Part shown: one piece after another, positions 11,811-58,550 of the stretch
Position numbering within the stretch: the stretch's first letter is position 1
Layout: each line of letters opens with the position of its first letter
Source: Raillietiella orientalis
Lineage: Eukaryota
DNA length: 64,000 nucleotides
Assembly: GCA_036172245.1 (NCBI GenBank)
Contig: JAYWIR010000018.1
Span: 124,001 to 188,000, forward strand
Direction: 5' to 3'
Program-made: the position numbers and the translations under genes
Notes under the pieces: generated by a model
Databases searched by the model: none
What the model was told of the DNA's origin: nothing
Seen by the model: the letters and a program-made list of their open reading frames with translations, nothing else

Positions 11811-12159
11811 GAGACTTGATCACGTGACAGTGCCATCATTCCCGTACCCTGTTGTAACATTGAAGGCGGATTGGAGGTTCTCCGGGTGGGTCCCGATCCA
11901 AGAGGAAAAAGAACTTCCCATCAGATCTCATGGGTCGACCTCATTAAAATGCCCATTTGTTAGGCTATGAGAGCTCAGCTGCACACGCGAGGGATGACAC
12001 CTTCTCCTTCCCCGAGCGAGTGCAACCGCCACAAACATCCTGTGGTTTGCTGCTGGATGGAGAGGTGCCTTTGTTGGCACCCATTTGGAGGAGCTCACGG
12101 TGTGGGGGTGGGAAGGATCGAGCAAGAAGGAACTGGCGGGAGGAGGCCTGTGAGCTAGT

Positions 12160-12440
12160 AGAATTTTATGTTATAATTATTATTACTACAAATCAAAATA
12201 TTAAGTGGTAGTTTAATGACTATTATTTTAAGTTGGGATGGACTGGGTATTATTTCTTATTGTTTTGGTTATTTTTGATATGAATCGTTTTTATATGTTC
12301 TGATTATATAGGTATGTTGGACTGAGGCAATTAGGCGTGATATTCATGGGATTAGGGTTAGGTATGGGGATGTTGGTATATTATGATTTATTGATTCAGG
12401 TGTCAGGTTAAGTAATAGATATGGTGTTGTATTAATAGGG
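12160..12440 (+). pseudogene. nad5: NUMT: mitochondrial NADH dehydrogenase subunit 5 fragment, frameshifted and internally deleted
   Basis: 12198-12275 reads MLSGSLMTIILSWDGLGIISYC, then LVIF after a 1-nt shift (cf. GWDGLGLVSYCLVI). 12322-12399 reads LSQLGVMFMGLGLGMGMLVYYDLLIQ with AGG=Ser and ATA=Met (cf. TLSQLGLM..FHLLTH). Composition is abruptly T/G-skewed and AT-rich. Confidence 0.8.
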
Positions 12441-12834
12441 TCAGAATTTTTCAGAACGCTAATGGAATGAAATTTCTAATTTCATCTCTGGGAATGCTTA
12501 GAATGTCTTAGAATATTCATGAGATGGAACCAGTGTATTTGTATGTATTTTTCAGTGCAAAATAGGATTAATGCAATAAATGCAAAAGCAGGAGGGACGC
12601 AGAAATGAGGATTCTCGCTTTATGAGGGAGGGTTCATGCGTTCAGGGACGCGGCATTGTCCGTCCTGAAGGATATTAGAAGCAACCCCTGCTGCTGTTCC
12701 AGGGTTCGAAGCCGATGTCAACATCCCACTCAAGAGGTTTCGGTTGGAAGGGCACCCTGCTTGCGTTGGCTGCGGGCTACCCAAGGAAGCCTTTGAGGAC
12801 GGCCTTCACCTCCTCGCCCGAATGATGGGCAGTG

Positions 12835-12896
12835 GGGTGGTGGCTTTTAGCCAGAGTATGCTTTTGGGTGGTGGCTTTTAGCCAGAGTATGCTTTT
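12835..12896. repeat. Perfect 31-bp tandem duplication
   Basis: gggtggtggcttttagccagagtatgctttt occurs twice in tandem. Confidence 0.95.
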
Positions 12897-15800
12897 AGCT
12901 GGTGTCTGTAAACACGATGTGCAGACATTCCTCAAGAATAGGACTGATTTGATGAACCTGAGAGGGGCCTCCATCCATCCTTCATGGAGACATCTGTTAT
13001 TGGGAGAATATACCTTGCTACACCAGGTATAAGGGTGTCGAGGGTATCAGGGAGGAGTTGAGAGATTGGTTGGTTGTCCCTCGGATACTAGACGGGACTG
13101 TTGAAGTAGACTGTCGGACGTACCGTACCTCTTGCGAGGAAACACTCCTCACTCTACTGGAACCTGGTACGGGTCCTGGTATGTGCTCAGATAATTTCTT
13201 TCATTTGTCAGAGTGGATCCACATCACAGGCAGTAATCGTAAGACTAATCCAGTGTTGACACGGTGGAGTCTGGTAGGATACGGCATCGTAACCCCGCGC
13301 TCAGACTGGAGGTACGGTATGTGGTCTGACATTGAACCCACCATCGAAAAGCCATAGTTCCTCGAATCGACCTCATCGAGTATTCTCATAGTCCCTTCCC
13401 TCTCATCTGCAGGATACCGGCTGTAATTTGAAGCTGGCGTGACGCTTTTATCGGTACCTTACGTTGTGGGGGTGGTCCCATTGTGGAGTTGGGAGTAGAT
13501 GCATTAGCAAAAGGTTCGACAGAAGATTTTGTCATGAACCAAAAAAAAGAAGTAAGAGGAAAAGCAGTCGAGGGAAAGTGTTGTCACTGAGTGACGTGAG
13601 CGTGTGTCGAGCGATGCAGAAGCACAGTCGTTCGACAAAACGCTGATCTTCGATCAGAAGTAAGGATCAGTTCAAAAATGCAAGTGACGGAAGGAGAGTC
13701 GGTGAGACCTTTTAGAATTCAGAAGCAAGAATTTCAAGTAGGAGACCTTATATTTGATTATATATTTGATTCTTCATCGAGAAAGCTTCCTGCTTCGGTG
13801 CGAAATTGCGCATTGTGTCAGCAAGCTTGGTTGGATTTAATAGAAAAACATCCCTGCAGCGCAGGCTACTGCAGGGAAACCAGAGGACCAGAGGACTTGG
13901 TCAGTTCAAACGCCGTGACCCTCGTATCACCAAGAACGCCTTGTGCAGAGTTACTTTGGCCGAGCTGCAAATGCAGCTAATTAAATCGCCTTGTGTTAGT
14001 CATACCAATTGGCATAACTAAACAAACAGTATTACCAATTGGTAGTGAGCATAAAACCACTTGCGATGCTAATTCACGGGTGAGAGAGCTTGTCACCCGT
14101 GGATCAAAGTACTGATGTTCCAGACCCATGCGTGAATCCGCTAAGAGAGGCGGGCGGTGACCGCGTTACCGCGAGTACACCCCGGACCTAACCCTTTTAC
14201 CGTCCCGTTTCAATCTTCGTGCAATGGTGATGGCATTTTCAGATGCACAAATTATATGTCCTGTGCGAGACAGAACTGCCCGATACCCAATGCAGTATTG
14301 ATAAATCCCGGTGATATAATGCCAGCTAATTATAATTGAGCGGCAGTAAGTGCGGAGCTTGATTAACTGAGCATTACCACTGGGCAAATCACAGGAGGAT
14401 ACTCCCACCTGGTTAGTGCGTCTTTCGGCGAATTTCGCCTTGAGAGTGCGCAGGTTGAATGTGATTTGCTGATTCTCCGTTCGCTTTACCAGTGCAGACG
14501 ACCGGAGCAGGAGATCAGCCATCAGTCAGGCGACCGTCAGGAGACTTTTGACGCGTCACTGACGATAAGAATTCCAAGAATTCCAGACTGCCAGGTTCAG
14601 TTTGAACCCGGCGGTCAAGGATGTAGCTAGGAACTATTTCCTGGTCATGACGGTAGTGATGCTACCACGAATTTGAGATAGGGATCCGTTTTCGCATCAT
14701 AGGATGAGGTAGATATTGCGCTCTTCTGCTGGTGGACAACCGACACTTCGGAAATCACCTCCGAGACGAAGGAATCTACGAGCCGCCCATTCCAGCGACT
14801 CCAGAAGACTCTCAAGTCTTCTGGAGTCGTAAGTAGTCTCGTTGTCTCTGAAGAGACAACGAGGAAAAAAGAGCCTACTTTGAGCAGAAAAGCCAGCCAA
14901 AATACAAAAAACCACATATCCATGCAGTGCTGTGCTACCGTAACGGTTTTCATGAGTGGCTTCGTATGCCATAGTTTCCGTTTCCGATCGTGGAAATGCT
15001 AAACTGTGCTGTACTACAGTACATTGTACTTAGCTACTTTTGGCAAGAGGAAGTACCGCTCAACTCAAGGGAGTTGAATGCCAGTGAATCCAAATCAGCA
15101 TCTCATCTATGTATCTCATTATGTCTCATTATGTAACAACTCATTATGTATCCGGAACAATCTATCCACCAAGGTATGGGAGAAGCATCAATAGATTTGC
15201 TTAAAGCATACAAGAACGAAATAGAAGCTCAGAAGCCCTACAACAGAAGAGCTCTTCAATATTGAAGAAGTACATATGTTCCATCACAGTACCATACATG
15301 AAGTGTATATAAGAAAAACGTAGGAGCAGTACTTTCCCTTTTCCCTAGTACCCTATTCCAAGCGTGGACAACAACGAAATCCTGAATGACACCGTGCCGT
15401 AATCAACCCATCCGTAGCTACATGAACAACGAAAGCTGGAGGAGTTGGGCATTAACGTCAAATACGCTGCCACGCTGCCATGGGTACTCCCAACACTCAG
15501 TGCTCGAAGAGCCAAGTGGAGACACAGACCAGCACAGTCACTGTGACGGGTCAAAGTAATATATTTTTCGAACTGCTAGCGTATGGTAGGCGACTAATAG
15601 ATAATAGATGTCAAGGCAAAGCAGGAAAGTGGCCCTAAAAAACAGGAATCTACCAACATCCATCCTGAGAGATTACTCAACTGAACATGATAAGTTCCCA
15701 AACCCCCATTGATGATTGCACTGATGCTATAACTATCGCAGATTATGGCAATGATGGCCGAGTGACTACTTATCCGCAAACTGAAATGCGGCGAGCTATA

Positions 15801-16688
15801 TTCGGAATATCAAAAGGAAATCACATTTCAAAGAATTGTTGTAAGGTGAAGATCATGGGAGCATGGAGACGTGCTCAGCGTCCATGCTCCTAGTATCATA
15901 ATGGATTAACATCGACGGTGCGAAGGATTTGCAATTTTCGTGGGATCCATATTTTATCATCGACTATCAAAGACAGAACACAAACCGCACCTCTTTCCAC
16001 CAAGTACAGAGTTAGTAATGCGTCAGAAAATCGTTTCTTCGAAATCCGTCGTGGGACTATCCTAGTAGACAGCCTATCTGTACTCACATGAAGCTGTTCA
16101 GAGGATCACAGTTAGGGATGGTAGCAAAAGTGGTGGTTCAAGCAGCTGTCGAAAATAGCTACATAGGACCCATTAGCAAGATGACTGAATTGAATGCTGA
16201 AGATTTTAGAAAAATTCAGTGTATCCATTTAGGATAAGAAACTGGTAACCTAACACTCCAGTGCTCGAGGAGCTAGACAGAGACGTTTATAAGAAGAAGT
16301 GGACCACAAAAAAGTTTTCCAAGCAGTATTAGCAACCCAGAAGGCAGCGTCATCAATGGAGGCGGCTGTGAGAACAACCAAGGACGGCTGTAGAGGCAAC
16401 GCAGGCCAATTGGACCTGTATCACTGAACATCAGATGGCGGATACCAGCGGAATATCAGAACGTTGTCCTTTACTGACGAACGTGAAGCTGCAAATTTTT
16501 GACTCATGATTTTCTGGATCTGCTGGAAGCGGTCTGGCAGCGGTCTGGCTGGGTCTGCCAAAACATGCAGGCCTCATCTCGCTGAGCAACCTGATTAGTA
16601 CCTTACACATAAGGTACCTATTTGTTCGAAAAGCAGTTCTATTTGGCAGAAACAGTGAAACAAGGTTGGCATTTGCTACCACGGAGAT

Positions 16689-18409
16689 CAATGAATGCAT
16701 CGCCAACACAGGATACCAACGAAGTCCACAACATTATTGAACACTACAGGTGAGATTTAGACAAACAAATGATGGTCCAATTCAATGTTTGGACAGTAAT
16801 CGTAAGAGTAAAGCCCAACGGTGCAACAAAAAGGCATATTGAAAGTTCTCACAAATCACAGCCAAGAATTGATTTCGATATTGATTCCTTATTGTGAAGA
16901 ACTCTGAAAGAAAGATGACGATCTTAGATGACAAACAAAGCTGACTCGTCAGATTTGACAGTGGTGAAAAATTTACAGTTCTGACATAAAGACAGTCCTG
17001 CTGACAATCCGAGTGCTTGGAGATGCATTTGGAAACATTCCACATGCAGCGTTTAACGAGCCATAGTGGATGGGTGGGAAAGTTCATGATGCACGCTGCT
17101 GCAACCGAACACGAGGCTCCAGGAGATACACACACGCCAAAAGAATTACTTCTGGGTTATCCCTATGGGTTCGGTTGGCACACTGGAAACGTAACAAGCC
17201 TGCAGATCTCGTATCAATCTACGAGTCTTCGAAAGATCAACTACTAGGCGTGAAGCACACATTGAAGAATTCCTTCCTTTCCAATACACAAACGAACCGA
17301 GAGTGTGGTCAACCACGAAATCGACAGAAAATGAACGAGTCGTTTACAAAGAGAACGTCCAGGCGGAGCCATGGCACCTTCGCCACAGCAACCCAACAGA
17401 AACATCAAATTCTTTTGAATTACCTGAAACTTGCTGAGCCCACCGTTCCCTTCCGGAGAGAGTGCACTGAACTCCCGCCACCAACTCGAAGAACTCGCAC
17501 TGCCTCGCTCAAGCGCTGGCAATTTAAGTCGACGCCGCGACCACCCTCGCAAATGTCCTCTAGCGCTTCCGGTTGCAAGGGCCGGTTCGTTTCGAAGCCC
17601 CCGTGTCGCGTGCAGTGGCTGCCAGACTGGCGAAAGCACCCGCATACTTCCAAAGCGATCCCTAAAAGTCCGTACTGCATTTGTTGGCAGCAACCAACAA
17701 GTGCCTCGCAGCAAGTCGGTGGTTGCAAAAGGTGGCATTGCCTACAGAGTTTACTGCTCCTTCCAGACACGCGATTTCAGTATCAGGCAAACACAGCCCC
17801 GGGCAAAACAAAGCAGAAAGCGCTGGCCGAGTAGCGAAGGCGTCGTGAAGCAACGCTCTTCCGCATTTCCGAGATGCACTCCGTTATGCGAATTCGAAAT
17901 GCGGGTGCACCACTTTTTGTGCACTGTGCTGATCTTTCTTGCCTTAATACGCTAACGAAGCACCCTGACATCAAATCTTCCTTTCATCCATTCATTGTGC
18001 ACCACGAGGACCGATTACGAATGCACTCGGTGGCTCTTCCGTTTCTTTCTCCGGCACGAACTGACTTCTCTCGGGGATGGAGTGTGCATTCCAATGCAGG
18101 AGGGCTTGTGAAAATTGACTCCTCTTCTTGCACTTCTGAGAACAACAGTGTGCGCTCATTTCGAGTTCCAAGCAAAGCGCAGATCTCCGAGGCAAAGTCT
18201 TTCAAGAAAAAAAAGCAACTTCCTGGAAGCAAAAAAGACCTTGTGGGGTGAGTGGAAGAGAGAAGAGTTTGCTTCTGGGTGAACAGTCAGGGATTGGATC
18301 AACTGATCTAAAACCGAAAATTGGCAGAGGCGATTTCAACTTGCAACAGAAACGCAGTAGAAAGTAGTCGCGATGCCTACTCAATTCTGTTCTTGCATTC
18401 TTCGTCAAG
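16689..18409 (+). repeat. 1.7 kb direct duplication, copy 1
   Basis: Matches 52093-53812 at an offset of about 35403. All ORF translations from 17070 onward are identical between copies. Scattered SNPs and indels occur only in the first ~340 bp. The 3' end contains a GDFN endonuclease-like motif near 18330. Confidence 0.95.
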
Positions 18410-50513: not shown

Positions 50514-52092
50514 ACCATCCAAACGCAGAAATTTACGCGATGTGGCGTAATCCCAACGCCTTTGGTATCCAAGGCGCATCTAAGTGGGCGAGTCGCCGCA
50601 CGCGTAACATTGCGTGAAAACAATCATTCAACAAAATCATTGTCAACAACGAATGTGTTATTGGTTTGTGGGGAAGCAGAAGTTCTGCCGGCAATGTAAC
50701 ACGTTCGGGCATCCAATTTTCAAAAGTCTTTCCGTCTTTCCGTCTTCAAGTCAACAAGTACCAGTAGATAGGTGAGCAACCATCGGAAGACTGCCCTTCA
50801 TAGTCCAGCAGATCCTCAGGGGTTAATTTACTTCACAACCGCAGATCACAATAAAATAAGGTTCTCCCCAGAGTGATAAGGAAAATTGGAACCACGACAT
50901 GAGTAGTACAGAGAATCCAGATGTAGATAAAGTATGGAACAAAGACGCTGTAGAAATTATCAGTGAACACCATGATACGTGTGGACAGAGTTTACTTGGA
51001 AAATCAAGTACCGCATCTCAAGATTGTAACGATGGCTGTAACGATGACGTAAAAAGGTAATCAGAGCCTATCAAGACTATGACACAGAGCTAATGATGCA
51101 GAGCTTCACTTGGAATTTTCGAACTGCAATCAAAAATCCAGTTGGATCAACTGAAGGCGGTCTGCCTGGAAAATAGAAACCACAGATCTCGAAAGCGAGA
51201 AACTGTGCAAACTAAGAAAATCAAGAGTTTTTGAGCATAGCTCAGGAAACAACAGCTCGAGCTCGACGACCACCAAACCGACCACCACGGCTCCGAAAAC
51301 ACCTTTTGTGACTCCACCCAGCTACGTGCAGCAAGCAATGGTCTGGCAAGTTGCTGGGCGAATCGAACGCCCCAGAGAAATGTTCCCATTCTGGAGGATG
51401 GGATCCTTGGTCCGGAGATTCATATTTCCCAATTCATATATTCGATTCATATACTCATATATTCAATATTAAATTTGGCTGATATATTGAAAAAGCGGAG
51501 ATTCGCTACTACATCATTGCTGTGGTTTGATCAGTGTGAAGTGGAAGATGTGATGTGGAAGAGCACGAAAAGATCCGCCCTACTAAGCAGTTGCACCTCG
51601 AAGGCCTCCAAGCTAATCAATTGCGACACATGGAAATGGTGTTAGCTGTATTTAAGGAGTGAACCAGAGAAAATCTGTCGTGTGCATTATCAATCGTTAA
51701 CTACGATGACAGGATGGATGGAGTTGACAGTCGCTTTTCTACAAACAGCGCAAGCTCAAGAATTTGGCGGCTTCCATGCTGCGCAAGAACAGGGCAACTA
51801 TCACAACTTGAGAAAGTGCCAATGTTTGGAATAGCAGCAGATGCAGTGATAACATCGGCCACAACTCAATTATAGAGAGAGAAAAACTGAAGCTCCGTAT
51901 GGACCGAAATCTCTTAAAGATGATATAACGACATTCCCTGAATGCAATGAAGGCCAAGAGGCCTTTTATTGCATTGCAGATGCAACGTTGTTGCAGGAGA
52001 CCGAATTCCGGATGCACACATAGGCACCAATTTGTTCGAAAAGCATGACAAAGCAGAGCAAAGCAGATGGTCGGCAGTGCTTCCGTGAATGC

Positions 52093-53812
52093 CAATGAAT
52101 CCATCGCCAACACAGGATGCCAACGAAGTCCACAACATTATTGAACACTACAGGTGAGATTTAGACAAACAAATGATGGTCCAATCCAATGTTTGGACAG
52201 TAATCGTAAGAGTAAAGCCCAACGGTGCAACAAAAAGGCATATTGAAAGTTCTCACAAATCACAGCCAAGAATTGATTTCGATATTGATTCCTTATTGTG
52301 AAGAACTCTTTTAGAAAGATGATCTTAGATGACAAAACAAAGCTGACTCGTCAGATTTGACAGTGGTGAAAAATTTACAGTTCTGACATAAAAGACAGTC
52401 CTGCTGACAATCTGAGTGCTTAAAGATGCATTTGGAAACATTCCACATGCAGCGTTTAACGAGCCATAGTGGATGGGTGGGAAAGTTCATGATGCACGCT
52501 GCTGCAACCGAACACGAGGCTCCAGGAGATACACACACGCCAAAAGAATTACTTCTGGGTTATCCCTATGGGTTCGGTTGGCACACTGGAAACGTAACAA
52601 GCCTGCAGATCTCGTATCAATCTACGAGTCTTCGAAAGATCAACTACTAGGCGTGAAGCACACATTGAAGAATTCCTTCCTTTCCAATACACAAACGAAC
52701 CGAGAGTGTGGTCAACCACGAAATCGACAGAAAATGAACGAGTCGTTTACAAAGAGAACGTCCAGGCGGAGCCATGGCACCTTCGCCACAGCAACCCAAC
52801 AGAAACATCAAATTCTTTTGAATTACCTGAAACTTGCTGAGCCCACCGTTCCCTTCCGGAGAGAGTGCACTGAACTCCCGCCACCAACTCGAAGAACTCG
52901 CACTGCCTCGCTCAAGCGCTGGCAATTTAAGTCGACGCCGCGACCACCCTCGCAAATGTCCTCTAGCGCTTCCGGTTGCAAGGGCCGGTTCGTTTCGAAG
53001 CCCCCGTGTCGCGTGCAGTGGCTGCCAGACTGGCGAAAGCACCCGCATACTTCCAAAGCGATCCCTAAAAGTCCGTACTGCATTTGTTGGCAGCAACCAA
53101 CAAGTGCCTCGCAGCAAGTCGGTGGTTGCAAAAGGTGGCATTGCCTACAGAGTTTACTGCTCCTTCCAGACACGCGATTTCAGTATCAGGCAAACACAGC
53201 CCCGGGCAAAACAAAGCAGAAAGCGCTGGCCGAGTAGCGAAGGCGTCGTGAAGCAACGCTCTTCCGCATTTCCGAGATGCACTCCGTTATGCGAATTCGA
53301 AATGCGGGTGCACCACTTTTTGTGCACTGTGCTGATCTTTCTTGCCTTAATACGCTAACGAAGCACCCTGACATCAAATCTTCCTTTCATCCATTCATTG
53401 TGCACCACGAGGACCGATTACGAATGCACTCGGTGGCTCTTCCGTTTCTTTCTCCGGCACGAACTGACTTCTCTCGGGGATGGAGTGTGCATTCCAATGC
53501 AGGAGGGCTTGTGAAAATTGACTCCTCTTCTTGCACTTCTGAGAACAACAGTGTGCGCTCATTTCGAGTTCCAAGCAAAGCGCAGATCTCCGAGGCAAAG
53601 TCTTTCAAGAAAAAAAAGCAACTTCCTGGAAGCAAAAAAGACCTTGTGGGGTGAGTGGAAGAGAGAAGAGTTTGCTTCTGGGTGAACAGTCAGGGATTGG
53701 ATCAACTGATCTAAAACCGAAAATTGGCAGAGGCGATTTCAACTTGCAACAGAAACGCAGTAGAAAGTAGTCGCGATGCCTACTCAATTCTGTTCTTGCA
53801 TTCTTCTTCAAG
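52093..53812 (+). repeat. 1.7 kb direct duplication, copy 2
   Basis: Matches 16689-18409. Confidence 0.95.
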
Positions 53813-53949
53813 CACGTGGAGCGGATGCACAAGACACCTACTCCTTGCAGCCGCCTACGTGGGGAAGGCTGAAAGGTGGCCACGTTTTCAAGTAAAGGAC
53901 GAGATTGCCCGCATCCAGCGCGGGTTTTAATACCGGTGACCCTGGACCC

Positions 53950-54258
53950 TAGCCTCTCTTTATTTTTATTTTTGTCTCATTCCTCACTCCCTTTAGCTCT
54001 GCAATTTTCCTGGTTTTGTATGTTGATCCCAGTGCATACAGAGCAAACCCAAATTTCTCCCTGCCCCAATCCCCCGGATTTCTTCTTTTTTTCTGTTTCG
54101 CCTCTCCCCTCTTCCATTCCGTACTTTTTGATATCCCGACCTGCATGTCGGTGGATCTTCCCTCGAACTTGTTTTGCCATCGGTTGGGAACCTGCTTGTT
54201 CCCAACTGGTTCCTTTTTTTCACCCGGTCACGCCTCGGGCGTGACCGGGTGAAAAAAA
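53950..54258 (+). mobile_element. Probable LINE 3'UTR ending in a perfect 21-bp-stem hairpin and A7
   Basis: Pyrimidine tracts, a ccgac-ctgcat-gtcgg hairpin (54136-54151) of the family type, and the terminus CCGGGTGAAAAAAA as at 46571. Confidence 0.55.
54214..54258. repeat. Perfect palindrome: 21-bp arms, 3-nt loop
   Basis: tttttttcacccggtcacgcc-tcg-ggcgtgaccgggtgaaaaaaa. Confidence 0.97.
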
Positions 54259-54435
54259 TTCACACTTTCGGGTGAGCTTTCGGCAGCGGCAACGGTTACC
54301 GAACCAAGGTCCGCATCGGACGGTAATCAGACGGGGAATTCTCATGAAACGGTGCTGTGGCAGCAGCCTGCGGATCAGAGCAGTCGGAGAAAGAGGAAGA
54401 GAGGGCTCGCGTGGTCGGTGGTTTCTTCTCTTCAC

Positions 54436-54612
54436 TCAGATATAAGGCAGGAGGGCGAAACAACGGAACGGTACCTTTCGCCTACGATAATTATACCGTC
54501 GCCTACGCTTAAATGTACTATTTCCAGACTTCACTACCCTACGGCGCTTGGCCACCGACGCTCTCGCAAACGCCTTCCGTTTTCGAGACCGAAAACGATG
54601 TAGTACTACCAT
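54436..54612 (-). pseudogene. cap: Truncated CRESS-DNA virus capsid: Arg-rich N-terminal arm
   Basis: From ATG 54612: MVVLHRFRSRKRKAFARASVAKRRRVVKSGNSTFKRRRRYNYRRRKVPFR. It is divergent from Rep across an intergenic region containing a stem-loop origin. No jelly-roll domain is visible. Confidence 0.65.
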
Positions 54613-54704
54613 TCGGCTGATTGACAGCCTACTGCCATTTTTTTCGCATCCCCTCACCCCTTACACTTTCACGCGCTGGTGGGCGTAGCCCATCCGACTT
54701 TCAC

Positions 54705-54786
54705 AAGTCCTTCACGAGGTCGGATTACACCAGACACTACATCTGAAAGCTTGCAAGGCTTTCCGCATGATTAAAGTCCTTCACGA
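54705..54786. repeat. 13-bp direct repeat (iteron-like) in the viral intergenic region
   Basis: aagtccttcacga at 54705-54717 and 54774-54786. The repeat is certain, the iteron role is inferred. Confidence 0.6.
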
Positions 54787-54849
54787 TCGCGGATCTGATA
54801 AGAACCAGTTTCTGAAAATATAATTTACAACTTCCTACACAATCGGTTA

Positions 54850-54881
54850 CAACAATCTGGATAATACTTATCAGATTGCTG
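54850..54881 (-). other. Rolling-circle replication origin stem-loop of a CRESS virus
   Basis: Minus strand cagcaatctg-ataagtattatc-cagattgttg: a 10-bp stem with one G-T pair and a 12-nt loop holding AAGTATTAT (54869-54861), one change from the canonical NAGTATTAC. Confidence 0.75.
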
Positions 54882-54906
54882 TGCCACCAACTACGCACTT
54901 ACGGCG

Positions 54907-54914
54907 TATATAAA
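54907..54914 (+). promoter_or_regulatory. TATA box of the rep promoter
   Basis: TATATAAA lies between the origin and the rep start (ATG at 54968 or 54993). Confidence 0.5.
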
Positions 54915-54967
54915 CCACTGGCCAGGACCGATCCACAGTCATACCACCAGTGAATTACCATTCAACG

Positions 54968-55982
54968 ATGCCATACGGACTCTTCTATCCTTATGTATCA
55001 TTGGTGTATAACTTTTAACAACTACACCGAAGACGAATTTCAAAAGATCAAATGCTGGTGCCGCAGCAACTGCAAATTTTGTATTTTAGGAAAAGAAACC
55101 GCCAGCACAGGCACACCTCAACTTCAGGGCTATATGCAACTTAAGGAGCCCAGAACCCTTCCTGGATTACACAGGAAGCCCTTCCACAAGTGCCATCTTG
55201 AGAAGAGCCGAGGAACACCTCAAAGCAACTTCAGGTACTGCACCAAGGAAGATAACCACGCGTGGGCTTATGGCATGATCGACGAAGCGAACGAAGTCAC
55301 TTCCTACGAAGAAGAGGTAACCAATACAACACTCCTTTTACACCACTTACGCCATCTAATTTCAGATTCTCGAACTCATCCAAACCGGCGCCGACGAAAA
55401 GTCCATATTGAAAAGTCATACCAAGTTTTACGCTCGCAATATTAATTTCGTTAAGGAATGCTTTCGCCTTTCCAGGAATTAAACATACTCCAACCCACTA
55501 GCCAACCTCAGACTCAGAAAATGGCAGATGGATCTCTCTGACGTCATTCGAAAGCCAGCAAGCGAAAGGAAAATTTACTAGTTCTACGACGCCATCGGAA
55601 ACGCCGGAAAAACCACCATGGCGAAGTATACCTTAAGAAAGGAGCCATTTACATGCACTCCTGCAAGAAGACCGACGCCGCACACATTTACAGCGGCGAA
55701 CCAATAATTGTCGTTGATCTCACAAGAGACAATCAGGAACACGTCCAGTACGGCTTCATCGAGAGTCTCAAGAATGGTATCGTGCTTGACTCCAAATATC
55801 AAGGTACAATCAAGTACTTTGACATACCCCACATCATCATCTTCGCCAATTGGGAGCCAGACTACTCCAAGATGTCCAGTGATAGATGGGTCATCACAAA
55901 CATTGCCAGACATGATGCTACCAAGGCAACAAATTGGACTATGAATGAGGAAATGTCCTTTGAATTTAGAGGAGCGCTGTGA
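54968..55982 (+). pseudogene. rep: Endogenous CRESS-DNA virus replication initiator (HUH endonuclease plus SF3 helicase), nanovirus/alphasatellite-like, disrupted
   Basis: Motif I WCITFNN, motif II GTPQLQGY (H to Q) and motif III YCTKE. A second frame (55402-55640) gives LRKWQ..ERKIY*FYDAIGNAGKTT (Walker A). 55653-55982 gives IIVVDLTR (Walker B), YGFIESLKNG..SKY, HIIIFAN (motif C) and MSSDRW. At least two frameshifts plus stops. Confidence 0.93.
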
Positions 55983-57832
55983 CGTGCGGACAAGATCTCT
56001 TCACGTTGTTGTATGTGGGTGCCAGTCTTACGTGAGAGCCCGTGCGTGGGGTGCAGGCTCTTGCGCAGAGACTTCTCTGAAACACTGGCAGATTGCCGAA
56101 TCCACATCTCCACCTTCAACCGATTCTTCGTAGTGTACTTCAGCGGCAACCCGTGTCGGAATTCCAATCCTTGGACAGAGGGCTAGGAGAGGTCCGATTC
56201 CCCGCATGTGACTCGGAGAGATCCTTCCATGATAGATGGCCAATGCAGTTTGCCAGGGTGGTGGCACAGCGGATAGGACACATACGGGTGTGTCACATTT
56301 CAAAAGAAAAGCACGAGTGCTTGTGGTGACATGCGTGAACCGTTGATAATGAGAATGGTGTCCCCCGTACCTTCCTCTCGATGACTGACGTAATGAGAAA
56401 CAGTCTGCCACCACCTTTCCTATTGCCACCACTGGATACATAGAGTGGTGGACAGTAGCTTTTTCGGAGAGCAGAGCTCTCACGGCTGTTTTTGTAATCC
56501 GTGCATATGATTGTCGGACCTCTTAGCGATCTCGAGACCGTGTCTGCTGCACAGGTCGCACAAACTGGATCCTCACGTTTCCCCTGCAATGAAACTTCAT
56601 TCAAGATGTTTGCGAATAGAACTACCGATACAAAATCTTGAATACAAGACCCAGCTTTCCCTTTTTTGAAGGGGACTTCGGAACTTCTTGGTCTTAAATC
56701 ACCGGAAAATTCCCTCAGACGAACGCTAGTGTTTACACCCTTGGTGTTTTAGCAGGAGCGTACTGGGAAAAACGGCGAAAACATTCACCAGTTCTTACTT
56801 GGAAAATGAAATTGCAGTGTCACAGTCTTCTGTCCCCGAGGTGTTTTCAAATTAGGATGGCAATGTGAGCGTCTTTGCCCGACGATCGTTGGTAATGCAA
56901 TCAAATAGCATCAGGACAGGATGCAGAGAGAGGAAGCAAATTTAGCTCATCGCCTGCGGTATGCACTGGAGAATTTTGAGGAAGTTTCCCCAGAGAAAAC
57001 TCAGAAATATTCTTTTCTAGGATCAAATCCCCGTGGTGATTTAGATGTCTTTACATCTTGCACAAGAGACACGTTTCGCTTAGGGAAGTGCAGCCTAGTC
57101 TTGGAAAAACAGTGTTTGAGCAGTGGCATTCCTATCGATTCATTTTGGGCGTATCTATGCAATGGCAAACGGAACTCGATGGTAAAAGCTGAAGTCTTGT
57201 AAGAAGGCAAAATGGATACGTGGTTGTCGAAGATTTTCATGTAGCAAGAATGGATTGCCGTCTCGGCTCTTCTGTCTTTACATCTTTACAGATGAATATT
57301 TCACGAAGCAAAAAAATAGAACGCGGTTGCCAGCATTGGAAGCGTTCTGCAAGACTCCACGATTTGCGTGTTTTCAAAGCGGACCGTTCGCAAAACACAC
57401 GTTGGTGCTCTTTCGGTACGGAGTTGCAGGTAGATGGGCTTCTTTTCATCTGCTCTCAAGTTAAGCTGCCTTCTCGGAAAAGCCTCTCCCTGGCTTTCGT
57501 GGCGGAACAGATTTCAAATCTCTACTTTTATGCATTCCCCCCTCAGAATTCAAATTTTTCGTGACCTGCAATACCGAAGGTCACCGCTGATGGGTGCCTG
57601 CAACCATGGAGCCAGGCAAGGTGAACGGCACGACAGATGCTTCAGATTTCGGAGAACGCGTGGTCCTGAAGGTGCATCGTCGTGCTCCTGGGACCTCGGT
57701 GTCGGTTCGGGCAGTCACGGGAACCCACGGGATGAAGAAGAATGCAAAGAGCCAAGTACTCCGGCAAGAAGAGGGAACGGCAGGAGTTAGTTGCGCATCA
57801 GTGCGTGTTGCTGATGCAGGAAGCAGAAGACC

Positions 57833-58148
57833 ATGGCATGCTCCAGCAACGGGCTTGTACTTACTGTGGAAAGAGGAAGCTATAGTATATCTCCAGAAAT
57901 TCTTCAAAATATATTATCGTTTCTGGAAATAGACGAACTGTTAAGTTTTCACTGCCTGGTTTGTAAAACCTGGAAAGAAATCATACATCATATTAGTTTT
58001 TGGGTGAAAAAATGTAGACGTGAAGGAATTCTGCTACCCCAACTAGTAGCCGACACCCTTTCTAGGTACCAAAACTGGAAAGATTTCGCATCCATTTACA
58101 AATGGCAACCATTTGGAAGGAATTTGTTGAGTAATAGCAGTGCAAAAG
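57833..58148 (+). CDS. F-box/FBA-domain protein (FBXO6/FBXO44/FBXO2-like), exon 1 of 3
   Basis: accATGg start, F-box PEILQNILSFL..CLVCKTWKEII, then PFGRNLL. GT donor at 58149 (phase 1). Confidence 0.9.
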
Positions 58149-58550
58149 GTTTTTCTGTTTTATTAGATGTGACCTTTTTCATAGTTCTTGTCTAGTTAAA
58201 CAACCATGCTTGAGTCAAAGTCATGTTGCAGCATTAAAGCCAATTCTTGTTTCACTGTAAATGCTTAATTTGGTCCTCGGAAATTCGACGAATCCTTATG
58301 TATCCTCGTTATTTTGAAGATACAATATAATTTTGCCAGATGTTAAGTAAACCTCAGACCAAGCGTTGTTCGATTAAAGAAAGGATAAAATGGAATCATT
58401 GCATATTAATAACTTAATGTATGTGTTTGACATGCAAATTGCGAGTTGATGAAGGCAAGAGATAATTATGTTAGGAATCTTTTAATTTAGCAAAAGTGCC
58501 CCAAATAAATATTGTTGGTCACGTTTTGTTTATGCTTGTTGAAATTGCAG

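What the first reader, a model, noticed from the sequence alone, without database searches (positions are those of the whole stretch)
54436..55982. Endogenous CRESS-DNA virus preserving cap-ori-rep architecture, with a nanovirus/alphasatellite-like Rep in an animal genome
Seen: all HUH motifs (I-III) and SF3 helicase motifs (Walker A GNAGKT, Walker B VVDLTR, motif C IFAN) spread over frameshifted segments, a divergent Arg-rich ORF, and a ~355-bp intergenic region with stem-loop, TATA box and 13-bp repeats. Known: the pattern D(I/L)xR..Y..IE.LKNG...KY..AN..S.DR matches Nanoviridae/Alphasatellitidae-type and related unclassified CRESS Reps rather than Circoviridae. Nanoviruses and alphasatellites do not carry cap on the rep circle. 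Inference: this is a fossil of a monopartite ambisense virus from an unclassified lineage, which would tie that lineage to an invertebrate host. Stops, frameshifts and TE flanks argue for real integration rather than contamination.
Basis: partly seen in the sequence, partly recalled or inferred. Interest (0 to 1): 0.88.

Follow-up and report, generated by a model that had tools for sequence, protein, structure and literature searches.

The report
Broken CRESS-DNA virus fossil in eukaryote genome
This is a decayed, integrated piece of a small circular single-stranded DNA virus (replication gene, replication origin and the first part of a likely capsid gene) from a virus group related to the recently named family Anicreviridae; such viral fossils are already well known in animal genomes.

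Summary
Window 54436-55982 carries one complete but disabled CRESS-DNA virus Rep gene (54993-55982). A profile of 87 full-length relatives covers it colinearly in three frame segments, positions 7-309 of 324. Upstream lie a stem-loop with a near-canonical nonanucleotide on the opposite strand, a TATA box and two exact 13-nt repeats. A divergent 58-aa Arg/Lys-rich ORF follows.

Lesions: two in-frame stops, one frameshift, and loss of the motif II histidine. The first "frameshift" is better read as a 49-nt GT-AG intron (55317-55365).

Nearest named relatives are four genera of Anicreviridae, which NCBI places in order Mulpavirales with Nanoviridae. Two of them are CRESS4 in Kazlauskas 2018. The nearest relatives are monopartite, ambisense viruses with the same origin arrangement. 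The helicase is not circovirus-type, but the nuclease domain scores higher against circovirus Reps.

Trees leave family membership open: the free tree puts the Rep outside the clade, while the constrained tree has the higher likelihood (p-AU 0.675).

The capsid call rests on position and composition only. No capsid body is present and none of 66 relatives' capsids matches.

The host was not identified; the flanks look metazoan. Integration could not be checked with reads.

Verdict: a real feature and a new member of a known kind.

The parts
54436..54612 (-). Arg/Lys-rich ORF (58 aa plus stop). It is the likely remnant of the N-terminal arm of a capsid gene, transcribed away from Rep.
   Evidence: 22 R/K of 58; one of only two places in the window with 17 or more R/K in 45 aa. 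No capsid homology was found.
54613..54992 (.). Intergenic region of 380 nt between the two divergent start codons.
   Evidence: Relatives have intergenic regions of 95-432 nt.
54705..54717 (+). First copy of the exact 13-nt direct repeat AAGTCCTTCACGA.
   Evidence: 2 copies in the window; 0 of 100 shuffles gave 2.
54774..54786 (+). Second copy of the 13-nt direct repeat.
54849..54882 (-). Origin-like stem-loop. The loop on the minus strand reads ATAAGTATTATC and holds the nonanucleotide-like AAGTATTAT (54861-54869). It differs from NAGTATTAC at the last base.
   Evidence: pair I3; z -3.06 and -3.77. Relatives carry (T/C)AGTATTAC on the strand opposite Rep in 9 of the 9 nearest loci.
54907..54914 (+). 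TATATAAA, 79 nt before the Rep ATG.
   Evidence: This is a sequence pattern only; function is inferred.
54993..55316 (+). Rep exon 1: HUH nuclease domain with motifs I and III intact. Motif II reads PQLQG, so the His is lost.
   Evidence: PF02407, 4.6e-14; profile positions 7-122; PDB Rep nuclease domains, E 2.4e-13 to 4.8e-11.
55317..55365 (+). 49-nt GT...AG interval, read as a viral spliceosomal intron.
   Evidence: the profile alignment resumes without missing positions across it; it is the best of 83 stop-free GT-AG candidates, at 99.6 bits against 82.1 unspliced.
55366..55640 (+). Rep middle part: linker/oligomerisation region and Walker A (GNAGKT). It has in-frame TAA at 55480-55482 and TAG at 55579-55581. 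The frame is lost at about 55633-55645.
   Evidence: (profile positions 114-211, 55.5 bits; X at both stops, the second at a conserved W).
55641..55982 (+). Rep C-terminal part of the SF3 helicase: Walker B IIVVDLTR, IESLKNG, motif C IIIFAN, SSDRW, then stop TGA at 55980-55982.
   Evidence: 5079 hits; 989 at E<=1e-10; profile positions 210-309, 150.6 bits.

Best explanation
A roughly 1.55-kb fragment of a small circular Rep-encoding ssDNA virus became integrated in a eukaryotic, probably metazoan, chromosome and has since decayed.

The source virus was monopartite and ambisense. Its rolling-circle origin was a stem-loop with NAGTATTAC on the capsid-sense strand (genome 'type II'). Its Rep gene was interrupted by one short intron, and its capsid gene began with an Arg-rich arm.

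Its Rep belongs to, or sits just beside, the CRESS4/Anicreviridae assemblage in order Mulpavirales, the order that also holds Nanoviridae.

The integrated copy holds the whole Rep gene, the whole intergenic region and only the first ~58 codons of the capsid gene. The capsid body (roughly 600-700 nt, judging from relatives) is missing.

Rep can no longer work: it has two stop codons, one frameshift and no motif II histidine. The origin nonanucleotide has also lost its last base identity.

Shown: homology, colinearity, the lesions, the origin-like hairpin, and the relatives' genome layout.
Inferred: the intron, the capsid identity of the Arg-rich ORF, germline integration, and the host being an animal.
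For: Rep identity:
-. The profile of 87 relatives covers positions 7-309 of 324 in colinear order.
- no other match to that profile in the window.

Decay:
- One search shows X at both stops, Q in place of the profile's H in motif II, and a frame switch at 55635-55644.

Intron:
-.
- A relative (L019) has a 55-nt GT-AG interval whose removal gives one colinear match of 328.5 bits over profile positions 1-299.
- PMC6186406 passages flag Rep introns in related unclassified genomes.

Origin:
-.
- The 9 nearest IMG/VR loci, 9 of 9, are ambisense with (T/C)AGTATTAC on the strand opposite Rep.
- That nonanucleotide lies 20-83 nt before the Rep ATG in 7 of those 9.

Lineage:
- The best overall relative is P0006, at 39/45/52% identity in three segments.
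- Named hits are Ketkevirus, Manawavirus, Otevirus and Kopavirus, all Anicreviridae.
- DflaCV-10 and CynNCXV are CRESS4 in the supplement of PMC5923481.
- The window has Thr at the position after D-L in Walker B and Glu in IESLKNG. I match these by eye to the paper's positions, where Ser/Thr is said to mark CRESSV4 and Glu to mark CRESSV4-5, Nanoviridae and Smacoviridae, with Leu in Circoviridae (PMC8780604 passages).
- The tree constrained to put the window with the 23-row clade holding all four named genera has a log-likelihood 10.42 higher than the free tree (p-AU 0.675).

Host context:
- The left flank 52016-53812 is a repeat, 97.4% identical to 16605-18409.
- Six ORFs in the window match reverse transcriptase.
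- An F-box ORF lies at 57815-58192.
- Two retroelement ORFs resemble clusters that are 91-100% eukaryotic, with Mollusca, Chordata or Arthropoda commonest.
Against: - No capsid similarity was found. The 66 putative capsids of relatives gave nothing at the ORF or anywhere in the window.
- A profile of 10 capsids gave its best hit on the Arg-rich ORF, but at E 6 and -7.4 bits.
- The power of that test is limited: only 10 of 36 capsid pairs among the 9 nearest relatives detect each other.
- The free IQ-TREE search (45 rows) put the window with another long branch (P0013) outside the Anicreviridae-holding clade, on an unresolved backbone with support 52. In FastTree (87 rows) it paired with the long branch L023. 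Highest identity to any relative is only 37-38%.
- The clade used in the AU test was named after the tree was seen.
- No Nanoviridae, Alphasatellitidae or bona fide Circoviridae Rep sequences could be put in the tree.
- No genome is held and no reads could be listed, so integration and copy number are untested.
- The 13-nt repeats lie 63-144 nt from the hairpin, further than typical iterons.
Confidence: 0.8

Rival explanations
1. Contaminating or episomal defective virus DNA was joined to host sequence by misassembly, so this is not a chromosomal insertion.
For: No genome is held and no run could be listed, so the junctions are unverified. CRESS viruses are frequent contaminants of sequencing samples (general knowledge).
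Against: The viral stretch is internal to the contig. It has about 54 kb of non-viral sequence on its left and 8 kb on its right, so two chimeric joins would be needed. The Rep is disabled by two stops, a frameshift and a lost catalytic His. Only about 1.55 kb of a genome of roughly 2.0-2.5 kb is present.
Confidence: 0.08
2. The Rep comes from a true nanovirus or alphasatellite, that is, a multipartite or satellite ~1-kb circle, and the Arg-rich ORF is a coincidence.
For: The helicase signature is shared with Nanoviridae according to PMC8780604 passages. The 'AlphaNanoSmacolike' label appears in the supplement of PMC5923481.
Against: All named nearest relatives are Anicreviridae with 2.1-2.3-kb Rep+Cap genomes. 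Walker B has Thr, where the paper reports Asp for Nanoviridae and Ser/Thr for CRESSV4. The nuclease piece scores 31 bits against 6h8o/2hwt, recalled as a nanovirus Rep, but 46-54 bits against circovirus Reps. The Arg-rich ORF is one of two such places in 64 kb and sits exactly where relatives have cap.
Confidence: 0.03
3. It is an endogenous member of Circoviridae (a circovirus or cyclovirus).
For: The nuclease domain's best solved matches are circovirus Reps. The type II layout with NAGTATTAC is also found in cycloviruses (recalled).
Against: The helicase piece finds no solved Rep at E<=1. The profile of relatives matches the full-length circovirus Rep 7lar only over residues 14-162, not its helicase. 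The window has Glu, not the Leu reported for Circoviridae, at the conserved alpha-3 position.
Confidence: 0.03
4. The Rep gene belongs to a non-viral mobile element, either a Rep-encoding plasmid or an HUH transposon such as a Replitron or Helitron.
For: HUH Rep genes also occur in plasmids and transposons (PMC10288648 abstract).
Against: Of the 67 related loci of at most 3.6 kb in which a Rep ORF was called, 66 also carry a second large ORF, often with an Arg/Lys-rich start, and a nonanucleotide hairpin. The window keeps the same hairpin and an Arg-rich divergent ORF. The Rep occurs once in the window and has no terminal repeats around it.
Confidence: 0.03

Closest known systems
Anicreviridae (order Mulpavirales): e.g. 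[quoted passage not shown] The two of these found in the supplement of Kazlauskas et al. 2018 are group CRESS4.
   Same: They share the Rep domain order and the helicase signature (D-x-S/T-R Walker B, IE.xKNG, FAN, S.DRW). They share the ambisense layout with NAGTATTAC on the strand opposite Rep, and an intergenic region of similar size.
   Different: Identity is only 37-38% at best. Placement inside the family is unresolved. The window copy is integrated, broken and lacks the capsid body. It carries an intron-like interval not seen in the named members' single-ORF Reps.
Endogenous 'nanovirus-like' and 'circovirus-like' Rep sequences in eukaryote genomes (Liu et al. 2011, PMC3198968)
   Same: These are Rep-dominated viral fossils in animal and protist genomes, often with stops and frameshifts. 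They fall near but outside the classical families (passages).
   Different: That survey counted 302 Rep-like but only 3 capsid-like pieces. This copy additionally keeps the origin hairpin and the start of a probable capsid gene. Whether this host or lineage was among those surveyed could not be checked.
Nanoviridae / Alphasatellitidae Reps
   Same: Nanoviridae is in the same order according to NCBI taxonomy. Nanoviridae shares Glu at the alpha-3 position.
   Different: Those are multipartite or satellite circles of about 1 kb with one gene each (recalled). Their Walker B position is Asp, not Ser/Thr. No sequences of either family could be compared directly here.
Circoviridae Reps (solved structures 7lar, 5xor, 2hw0, 7kii)
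   Same: The nuclease domain is clearly homologous, at E 2.4e-13 to 4.8e-11.
   Different: The helicase domain is not detectably similar at E<=1.

Membership tests
CRESS-DNA virus Rep (Cressdnaviricota) | N-terminal HUH nuclease with motifs I-III, followed by an SF3 helicase with Walker A, Walker B, motif C and an Arg finger, in that order. | tested here: met
   All motifs are present in order, but the motif II His is replaced by Gln and the gene is broken.
CRESS-DNA virus genome | Stem-loop origin with a NANTATTAC-type nonanucleotide in the intergenic region. | tested here: met
   The hairpin lies at 54849-54882, with AAGTATTAT on the minus strand. This is one mismatch from the NAGTATTAC seen in relatives.
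CRESS-DNA virus genome | A capsid gene homologous to those of relatives. | tested here: not met
   Only a 58-aa Arg-rich ORF is present. The 66 capsids and a 10-capsid profile gave no significant match. The body is absent from the window.
Anicreviridae / CRESS4 | Rep groups with the family's members in a phylogeny. | tested here: inconclusive
   FastTree puts the window inside a 33-row group with the four named genera, support 85. IQ-TREE quick puts it outside the 23-row clade on a backbone of support 52. The constrained tree is 10.42 log-likelihood units better, p-AU 0.675.
Anicreviridae / CRESS4 | Ser/Thr at the Walker B position where most groups have Asp (PMC8780604). | tested here: met
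   The window reads VVDLTR. Among the first 150 hits the commonest forms are DLSR 19, DFSR 14, DFTR 14, DLTR 9, DYTR 9 and DYSR 7; 38 had no match to the pattern. I matched the position to the paper's description by eye.
Anicreviridae / CRESS4 | Monopartite ambisense genome of about 2.1-2.5 kb, with the nonanucleotide on the capsid-sense strand. | tested here: inconclusive
   The orientation of Rep, hairpin and Arg-rich ORF fits. Genome size and a full capsid cannot be read from a 1.55-kb fragment. I did not see the family's official criteria.
Nanoviridae / Alphasatellitidae | Rep alone on a circle of about 1 kb; no capsid gene beside it. | tested here: not met
   A divergent Arg-rich ORF lies 380 nt upstream. 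The relatives are 2.0-3.4-kb Rep+Cap genomes. The definition itself is recalled.
Nanoviridae / Alphasatellitidae | Rep groups with the family's members in a phylogeny. | not testable with these tools
Circoviridae | Circovirus-type SF3 helicase domain. | tested here: not met
   there is no match to the helicase part of 7lar. The window has Glu where the paper reports Leu at the alpha-3 position.

The most novel reading that the evidence does not exclude
The fragment is the germline fossil of a still unsampled sister lineage of Anicreviridae with a spliced Rep. It would be the first direct evidence that this virus group replicates in the nuclei of a specific animal host. Until now the group has been known only by association with arthropods, molluscs, faeces and nests.
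Probability: 0.3. Interest if true: 0.55.

Novelty: new member of a known kind. Interest (0 to 1): 0.4.

Why it matters
Hosts of most CRESS-DNA virus families are known only by association. One review table lists Anicreviridae simply as 'Invertebrates, Vertebrates' (PMC11945456 passage).

An integrated copy in a chromosome is direct evidence that such a virus once reached the germline nucleus of that organism. A retained spliceosomal intron would argue for a eukaryotic host.

The gain is modest, because Rep fossils of this general kind have been catalogued in many invertebrates since 2011. It also depends on naming the host and confirming the junctions, and neither could be done here.

My searches for 'Anicreviridae' (2 papers, neither on endogenous copies) and for 'CRESSV4' with 'endogenous' (0 papers) found no report of endogenous copies of this group in the held library. 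That library lacks most subscription journals and the ICTV proposals.

Tried and rejected
- Whole genome: none is held.
- Sequencing runs: none was listed for 53900-56500, and no RNA holder was listed.
- Earlier findings of this scan: nothing for this genome or sequence. One unrelated diatom plastome note came up.
- Word-based protein search with the nuclease piece against longer proteins: none at E<=0.001.
- IMG/VR scan with the nuclease piece: no relative. With the helicase piece: one locus, L001, at 45% identity.
- Metagenome scan with the helicase piece: none.
- Capsid searches: tblastn with the L001 cap; 66 caps against 52500-58500 and against the whole window; a 10-cap profile. All were negative or non-significant.
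- Pfam on the Arg-rich ORF and on the smaller Rep pieces: nothing significant.
- Host identification: the RT ORF gave one unnamed 68% hit. Two Atlas look-ups gave only metazoan-leaning clusters. There was no Rfam family and no tRNA in the window. CpG observed/expected of 0.84 argues weakly against a vertebrate.
- No poly(A) signal AATAAA was found at 55901-56300.
- No tandem repeats lie in 53500-57000.
- The bacterial promoter scan of the intergenic region is not relevant to a eukaryotic virus and was set aside.
- Intron scans of L073 and L025 gave candidates that cross contig ends. L053 gave no candidates, and L066 gave no colinear solution. None of these four was used.
Full report
**What is there**

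Window 54436-55982 was read on both strands.

On the plus strand a Rep gene is recognisable from an ATG at 54993 to a TGA at 55980-55982.
- The piece 54954-55316 matches Pfam Viral_Rep (PF02407) at E 4.6e-14. The other five pieces I submitted gave no significant family.
- The piece 55644-55979, scored against 1.84 billion representative proteins, found 5079 proteins at E<=1e-3 and 989 at E<=1e-10. Most of the best 150 were 40-52% identical (range 36-52%).
- I built a profile from 87 full-length hits (270-400 aa; the two-copy protein P0001 was left out). I ran it over the six frames of 53800-56600 with stops as X. It matched three colinear segments:
  - positions 7-122 in the frame of 54996 (77.8 bits);
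  - positions 114-211 in the next frame, from 55363 (55.5 bits);
  - positions 210-309 back in the first frame, from 55635 (150.6 bits).
  The profile has 324 positions, so the whole Rep is present.
- Over the whole 64-kb window nothing else matches this profile, apart from a noise hit at E 0.5.
- Motif coordinates are given under 'parts'.

**Lesions**

The alignment shows four defects:
- an in-frame TAA at 55480-55482;
- an in-frame TAG at 55579-55581, at a position where the profile has a conserved Trp;
- a change of frame between about 55633 and 55645;
- Gln in place of the profile's His in motif II (PQLQG).

The gene is therefore dead. I give no repair.

**The first 'frameshift' is probably an intron**

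- Homology in the first frame ends at 55316 and resumes in the next frame at 55366.
- The 49 nt between begin with GT and end with AG, and the profile loses no positions across the gap.
- Among 83 stop-free GT-AG intervals with donors in 55250-55420, removing 55317-55365 gave the best profile score: 99.6 bits, against 82.1 for the unspliced frame.
- A related IMG/VR genome, L019, has a 55-nt GT-AG interval inside its contig. Removing it turns two frame segments into one colinear match of 328.5 bits over profile positions 1-299.
- Passages of PMC6186406 state that some related unclassified genomes have Rep ORFs interrupted by an intron.
- A 1-nt frameshift within a variable linker cannot be excluded.

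**Intergenic region and origin**

- Between 54613 and 54992 lies a hairpin at 54849-54882, with 11-nt arms (one mismatch) and a 12-nt loop.
- It folds better than shuffles on both strands (z -3.06 and -3.77).
- On the minus strand the loop reads ATAAGTATTATC. This contains AAGTATTAT, one base off the NAGTATTAC of relatives.
- In the 9 IMG/VR genomes nearest by Rep (L001-L009), 9 of 9 are ambisense and carry (T/C)AGTATTAC in a hairpin on the strand opposite Rep.
- In 7 of those 9 the nonanucleotide lies 20-83 nt before the Rep ATG that I called. In the other two it falls inside my ORF call. Intergenic regions span 95-432 nt.
- The window's values are about 120 nt and 380 nt.
- TATATAAA lies at 54907-54914.
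- The 13-nt repeat is exact and occurs twice, at 54705 and 54774; 0 of 100 shuffles gave two copies. Any role as iterons is inferred, and the repeats lie rather far from the hairpin.

**The 'cap'**

- The minus-strand ORF from 54612 to the stop ending at 54436 has 58 residues, 22 of them Arg or Lys.
- Of 30,700 stop-free 45-residue windows in all six frames of the window, 22 have 17 or more R/K. They lie at two places only: this ORF and a plus-strand frame near 13500.
- The ORF's place and direction, divergent from Rep with the origin between them, are those of the capsid gene in the relatives.
- There is no sequence evidence beyond that:
  - no Pfam family;
  - no tblastn match with the L001 capsid;
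  - no match of 66 putative capsids of relatives in 52500-58500 (best E 0.012, at an unrelated plus-strand place);
  - no match of those capsids anywhere in the window at E<=1.
- A profile of 10 mutually related capsids gave its best hit on the Arg-rich ORF, but at E 6 and -7.4 bits.
- The test has limited power: among the nine nearest relatives only 10 of 36 capsid pairs find each other at E<=1e-3.
- No capsid body is present on either side of Rep. At most the first ~58 codons of a capsid gene survive, so 'cap-ori-rep architecture preserved' is only partly true.

**Lineage**

- The best overall relative is the unnamed protein P0006 from a 2026-nt contig, 39%, 45% and 52% identical over three segments.
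- A profile search with 22 relatives returned 838 proteins at E<=1e-10 (120 listed). Named hits among them were:
  - Dragonfly larvae associated circular virus-10 (Manawavirus);
  - Otevirus soksuewis.
- All four are Anicreviridae. NCBI taxonomy places that family in order Mulpavirales with Nanoviridae, Metaxyviridae and Amesuviridae.
- The supplement table of PMC5923481 assigns DflaCV-10 and CynNCXV to group CRESS4. A neighbouring CRESS4 row (Littorina sp. associated circular virus) carries the domain label 'AlphaNanoSmacolike'. The paper's conclusions place CRESS4 and CRESS5 basal to Nanoviridae.
- Passages of PMC8780604 say that CRESSV4 has Ser/Thr at the Walker B position, where Nanoviridae and Circoviridae have Asp. 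They also say that CRESSV4-5, Nanoviridae and Smacoviridae have Glu at a conserved alpha-3 position, where Circoviridae have Leu.
- The window reads VVDLTR and IESLKNG, which fits CRESSV4. I matched these positions by eye.

**Solved structures**

- The nuclease piece matches circovirus-type Rep nuclease domains best (7kii 53.8 bits; 2hw0, 5xor, 6wdz, 8h56 and 7lar at 46-50 bits). It matches 6h8o/2hwt less well, at 31 bits. My identification of those two entries as a nanovirus Rep is recalled.
- The helicase piece matches no solved Rep at E<=1.
- The 22-sequence profile matches the full-length circovirus Rep 7lar only over residues 14-162.
This is the mixed pattern that PMC5923481 describes for many uncultured Reps (abstract).

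**Trees**

The window Rep entered the trees as five pieces joined by X.
- FastTree on 87 rows placed it in a 33-row group (support 85) that holds all four named genera. It was joined to the long branch L023, and the tool warned of long-branch attraction.
- IQ-TREE (quick, LG+C20 PMSF) on 45 rows placed it with another long branch, P0013 (SH-aLRT 91). That pair lay outside the 23-row clade (support 89) with the four named genera, on a backbone of support 52.
- The best tree found with the window held together with that clade had a log-likelihood 10.42 higher than the free tree, p-AU 0.675. The group was named after the tree was seen.
- I conclude that the Rep lies in or beside Anicreviridae, with membership unresolved.
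- No Nanoviridae, Alphasatellitidae or bona fide Circoviridae Reps were available as rows. One row, AHEaCV-27, is labelled 'unclassified Circoviridae' in NCBI taxonomy but carries this helicase type.

**Context and integration**

- The left flank 52016-53812 is 97.4% identical over 1811 aligned nt to 16605-18409, so it is a dispersed repeat. The viral part is unique in the window.
- Six ORFs in the window match reverse transcriptase.
- An F-box ORF lies at 57815-58192.
- Two retroelement ORFs resemble Atlas clusters that are 91-100% eukaryotic, with Mollusca, Chordata or Arthropoda commonest.
- CpG observed/expected is 0.84.
- The host is therefore eukaryotic and probably an animal, but it was not identified.
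- No genome is held. The read-based checks are recorded under Tried and rejected.
- Two things make integration much the likeliest reading: the viral part is internal to the contig, and Rep is disabled. Integration is nevertheless inferred, not shown.

**Comparison and novelty**

- Passages of PMC3198968 report 302 Rep-like and 3 capsid-like endogenous sequences in 35 eukaryotes.
- This finding is a further example of that kind.
- Three points go beyond the usual: the retained origin hairpin, the probable viral intron, and the affinity to a family whose hosts are known only by association.
- I found no paper on endogenous copies of this group in the held library. ICTV proposals and bioRxiv supplements were not visible to me.

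Noticed in passing
window 54214-54258: A perfect palindrome with 21-nt arms and a 3-nt loop (DNA fold -26.5 kcal/mol, z -9.0). It lies about 180 nt beyond the end of the Arg-rich ORF. Its origin is unknown: it could be a foldback or transposon end, or a scar of the insertion.
   Followed up: partly
window 52016-53812 and 16605-18409: Two copies of a ~1.8-kb repeat, 97.4% identical. They share identical 255-aa and 175-aa open frames that match no Pfam family.
   Followed up: partly
window 57815-58192 (+): An ORF with an F-box-like domain (PF12937, E 4.2e-9), about 1.8 kb to the right of the viral part. It is possibly a host gene exon.
   Followed up: no
window near 13500 (+): The only other place in the window with 17 or more Arg/Lys in a stop-free 45-aa frame. 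It lies in a stretch of high GC skew (0.20 for 12001-14000).
   Followed up: no
protein P0001: A 354-aa protein that NCBI labels as a hypothetical protein of a Methylococcales MAG. It holds two tandem copies of this CRESS helicase domain and no nuclease domain, on a 3.9-kb contig. It is probably a mis-binned viral or endogenous sequence.
   Followed up: no
L019:1984-2038: An IMG/VR relative with a 55-nt GT-AG interval in Rep. Removing it gives one colinear profile match (328.5 bits), which suggests a spliced Rep.
   Followed up: partly
L013 / P0271: [quoted passage not shown] Its Rep was retrieved by, and clusters among, Reps with this non-circovirus helicase type. The label looks like a legacy one.
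   Followed up: no
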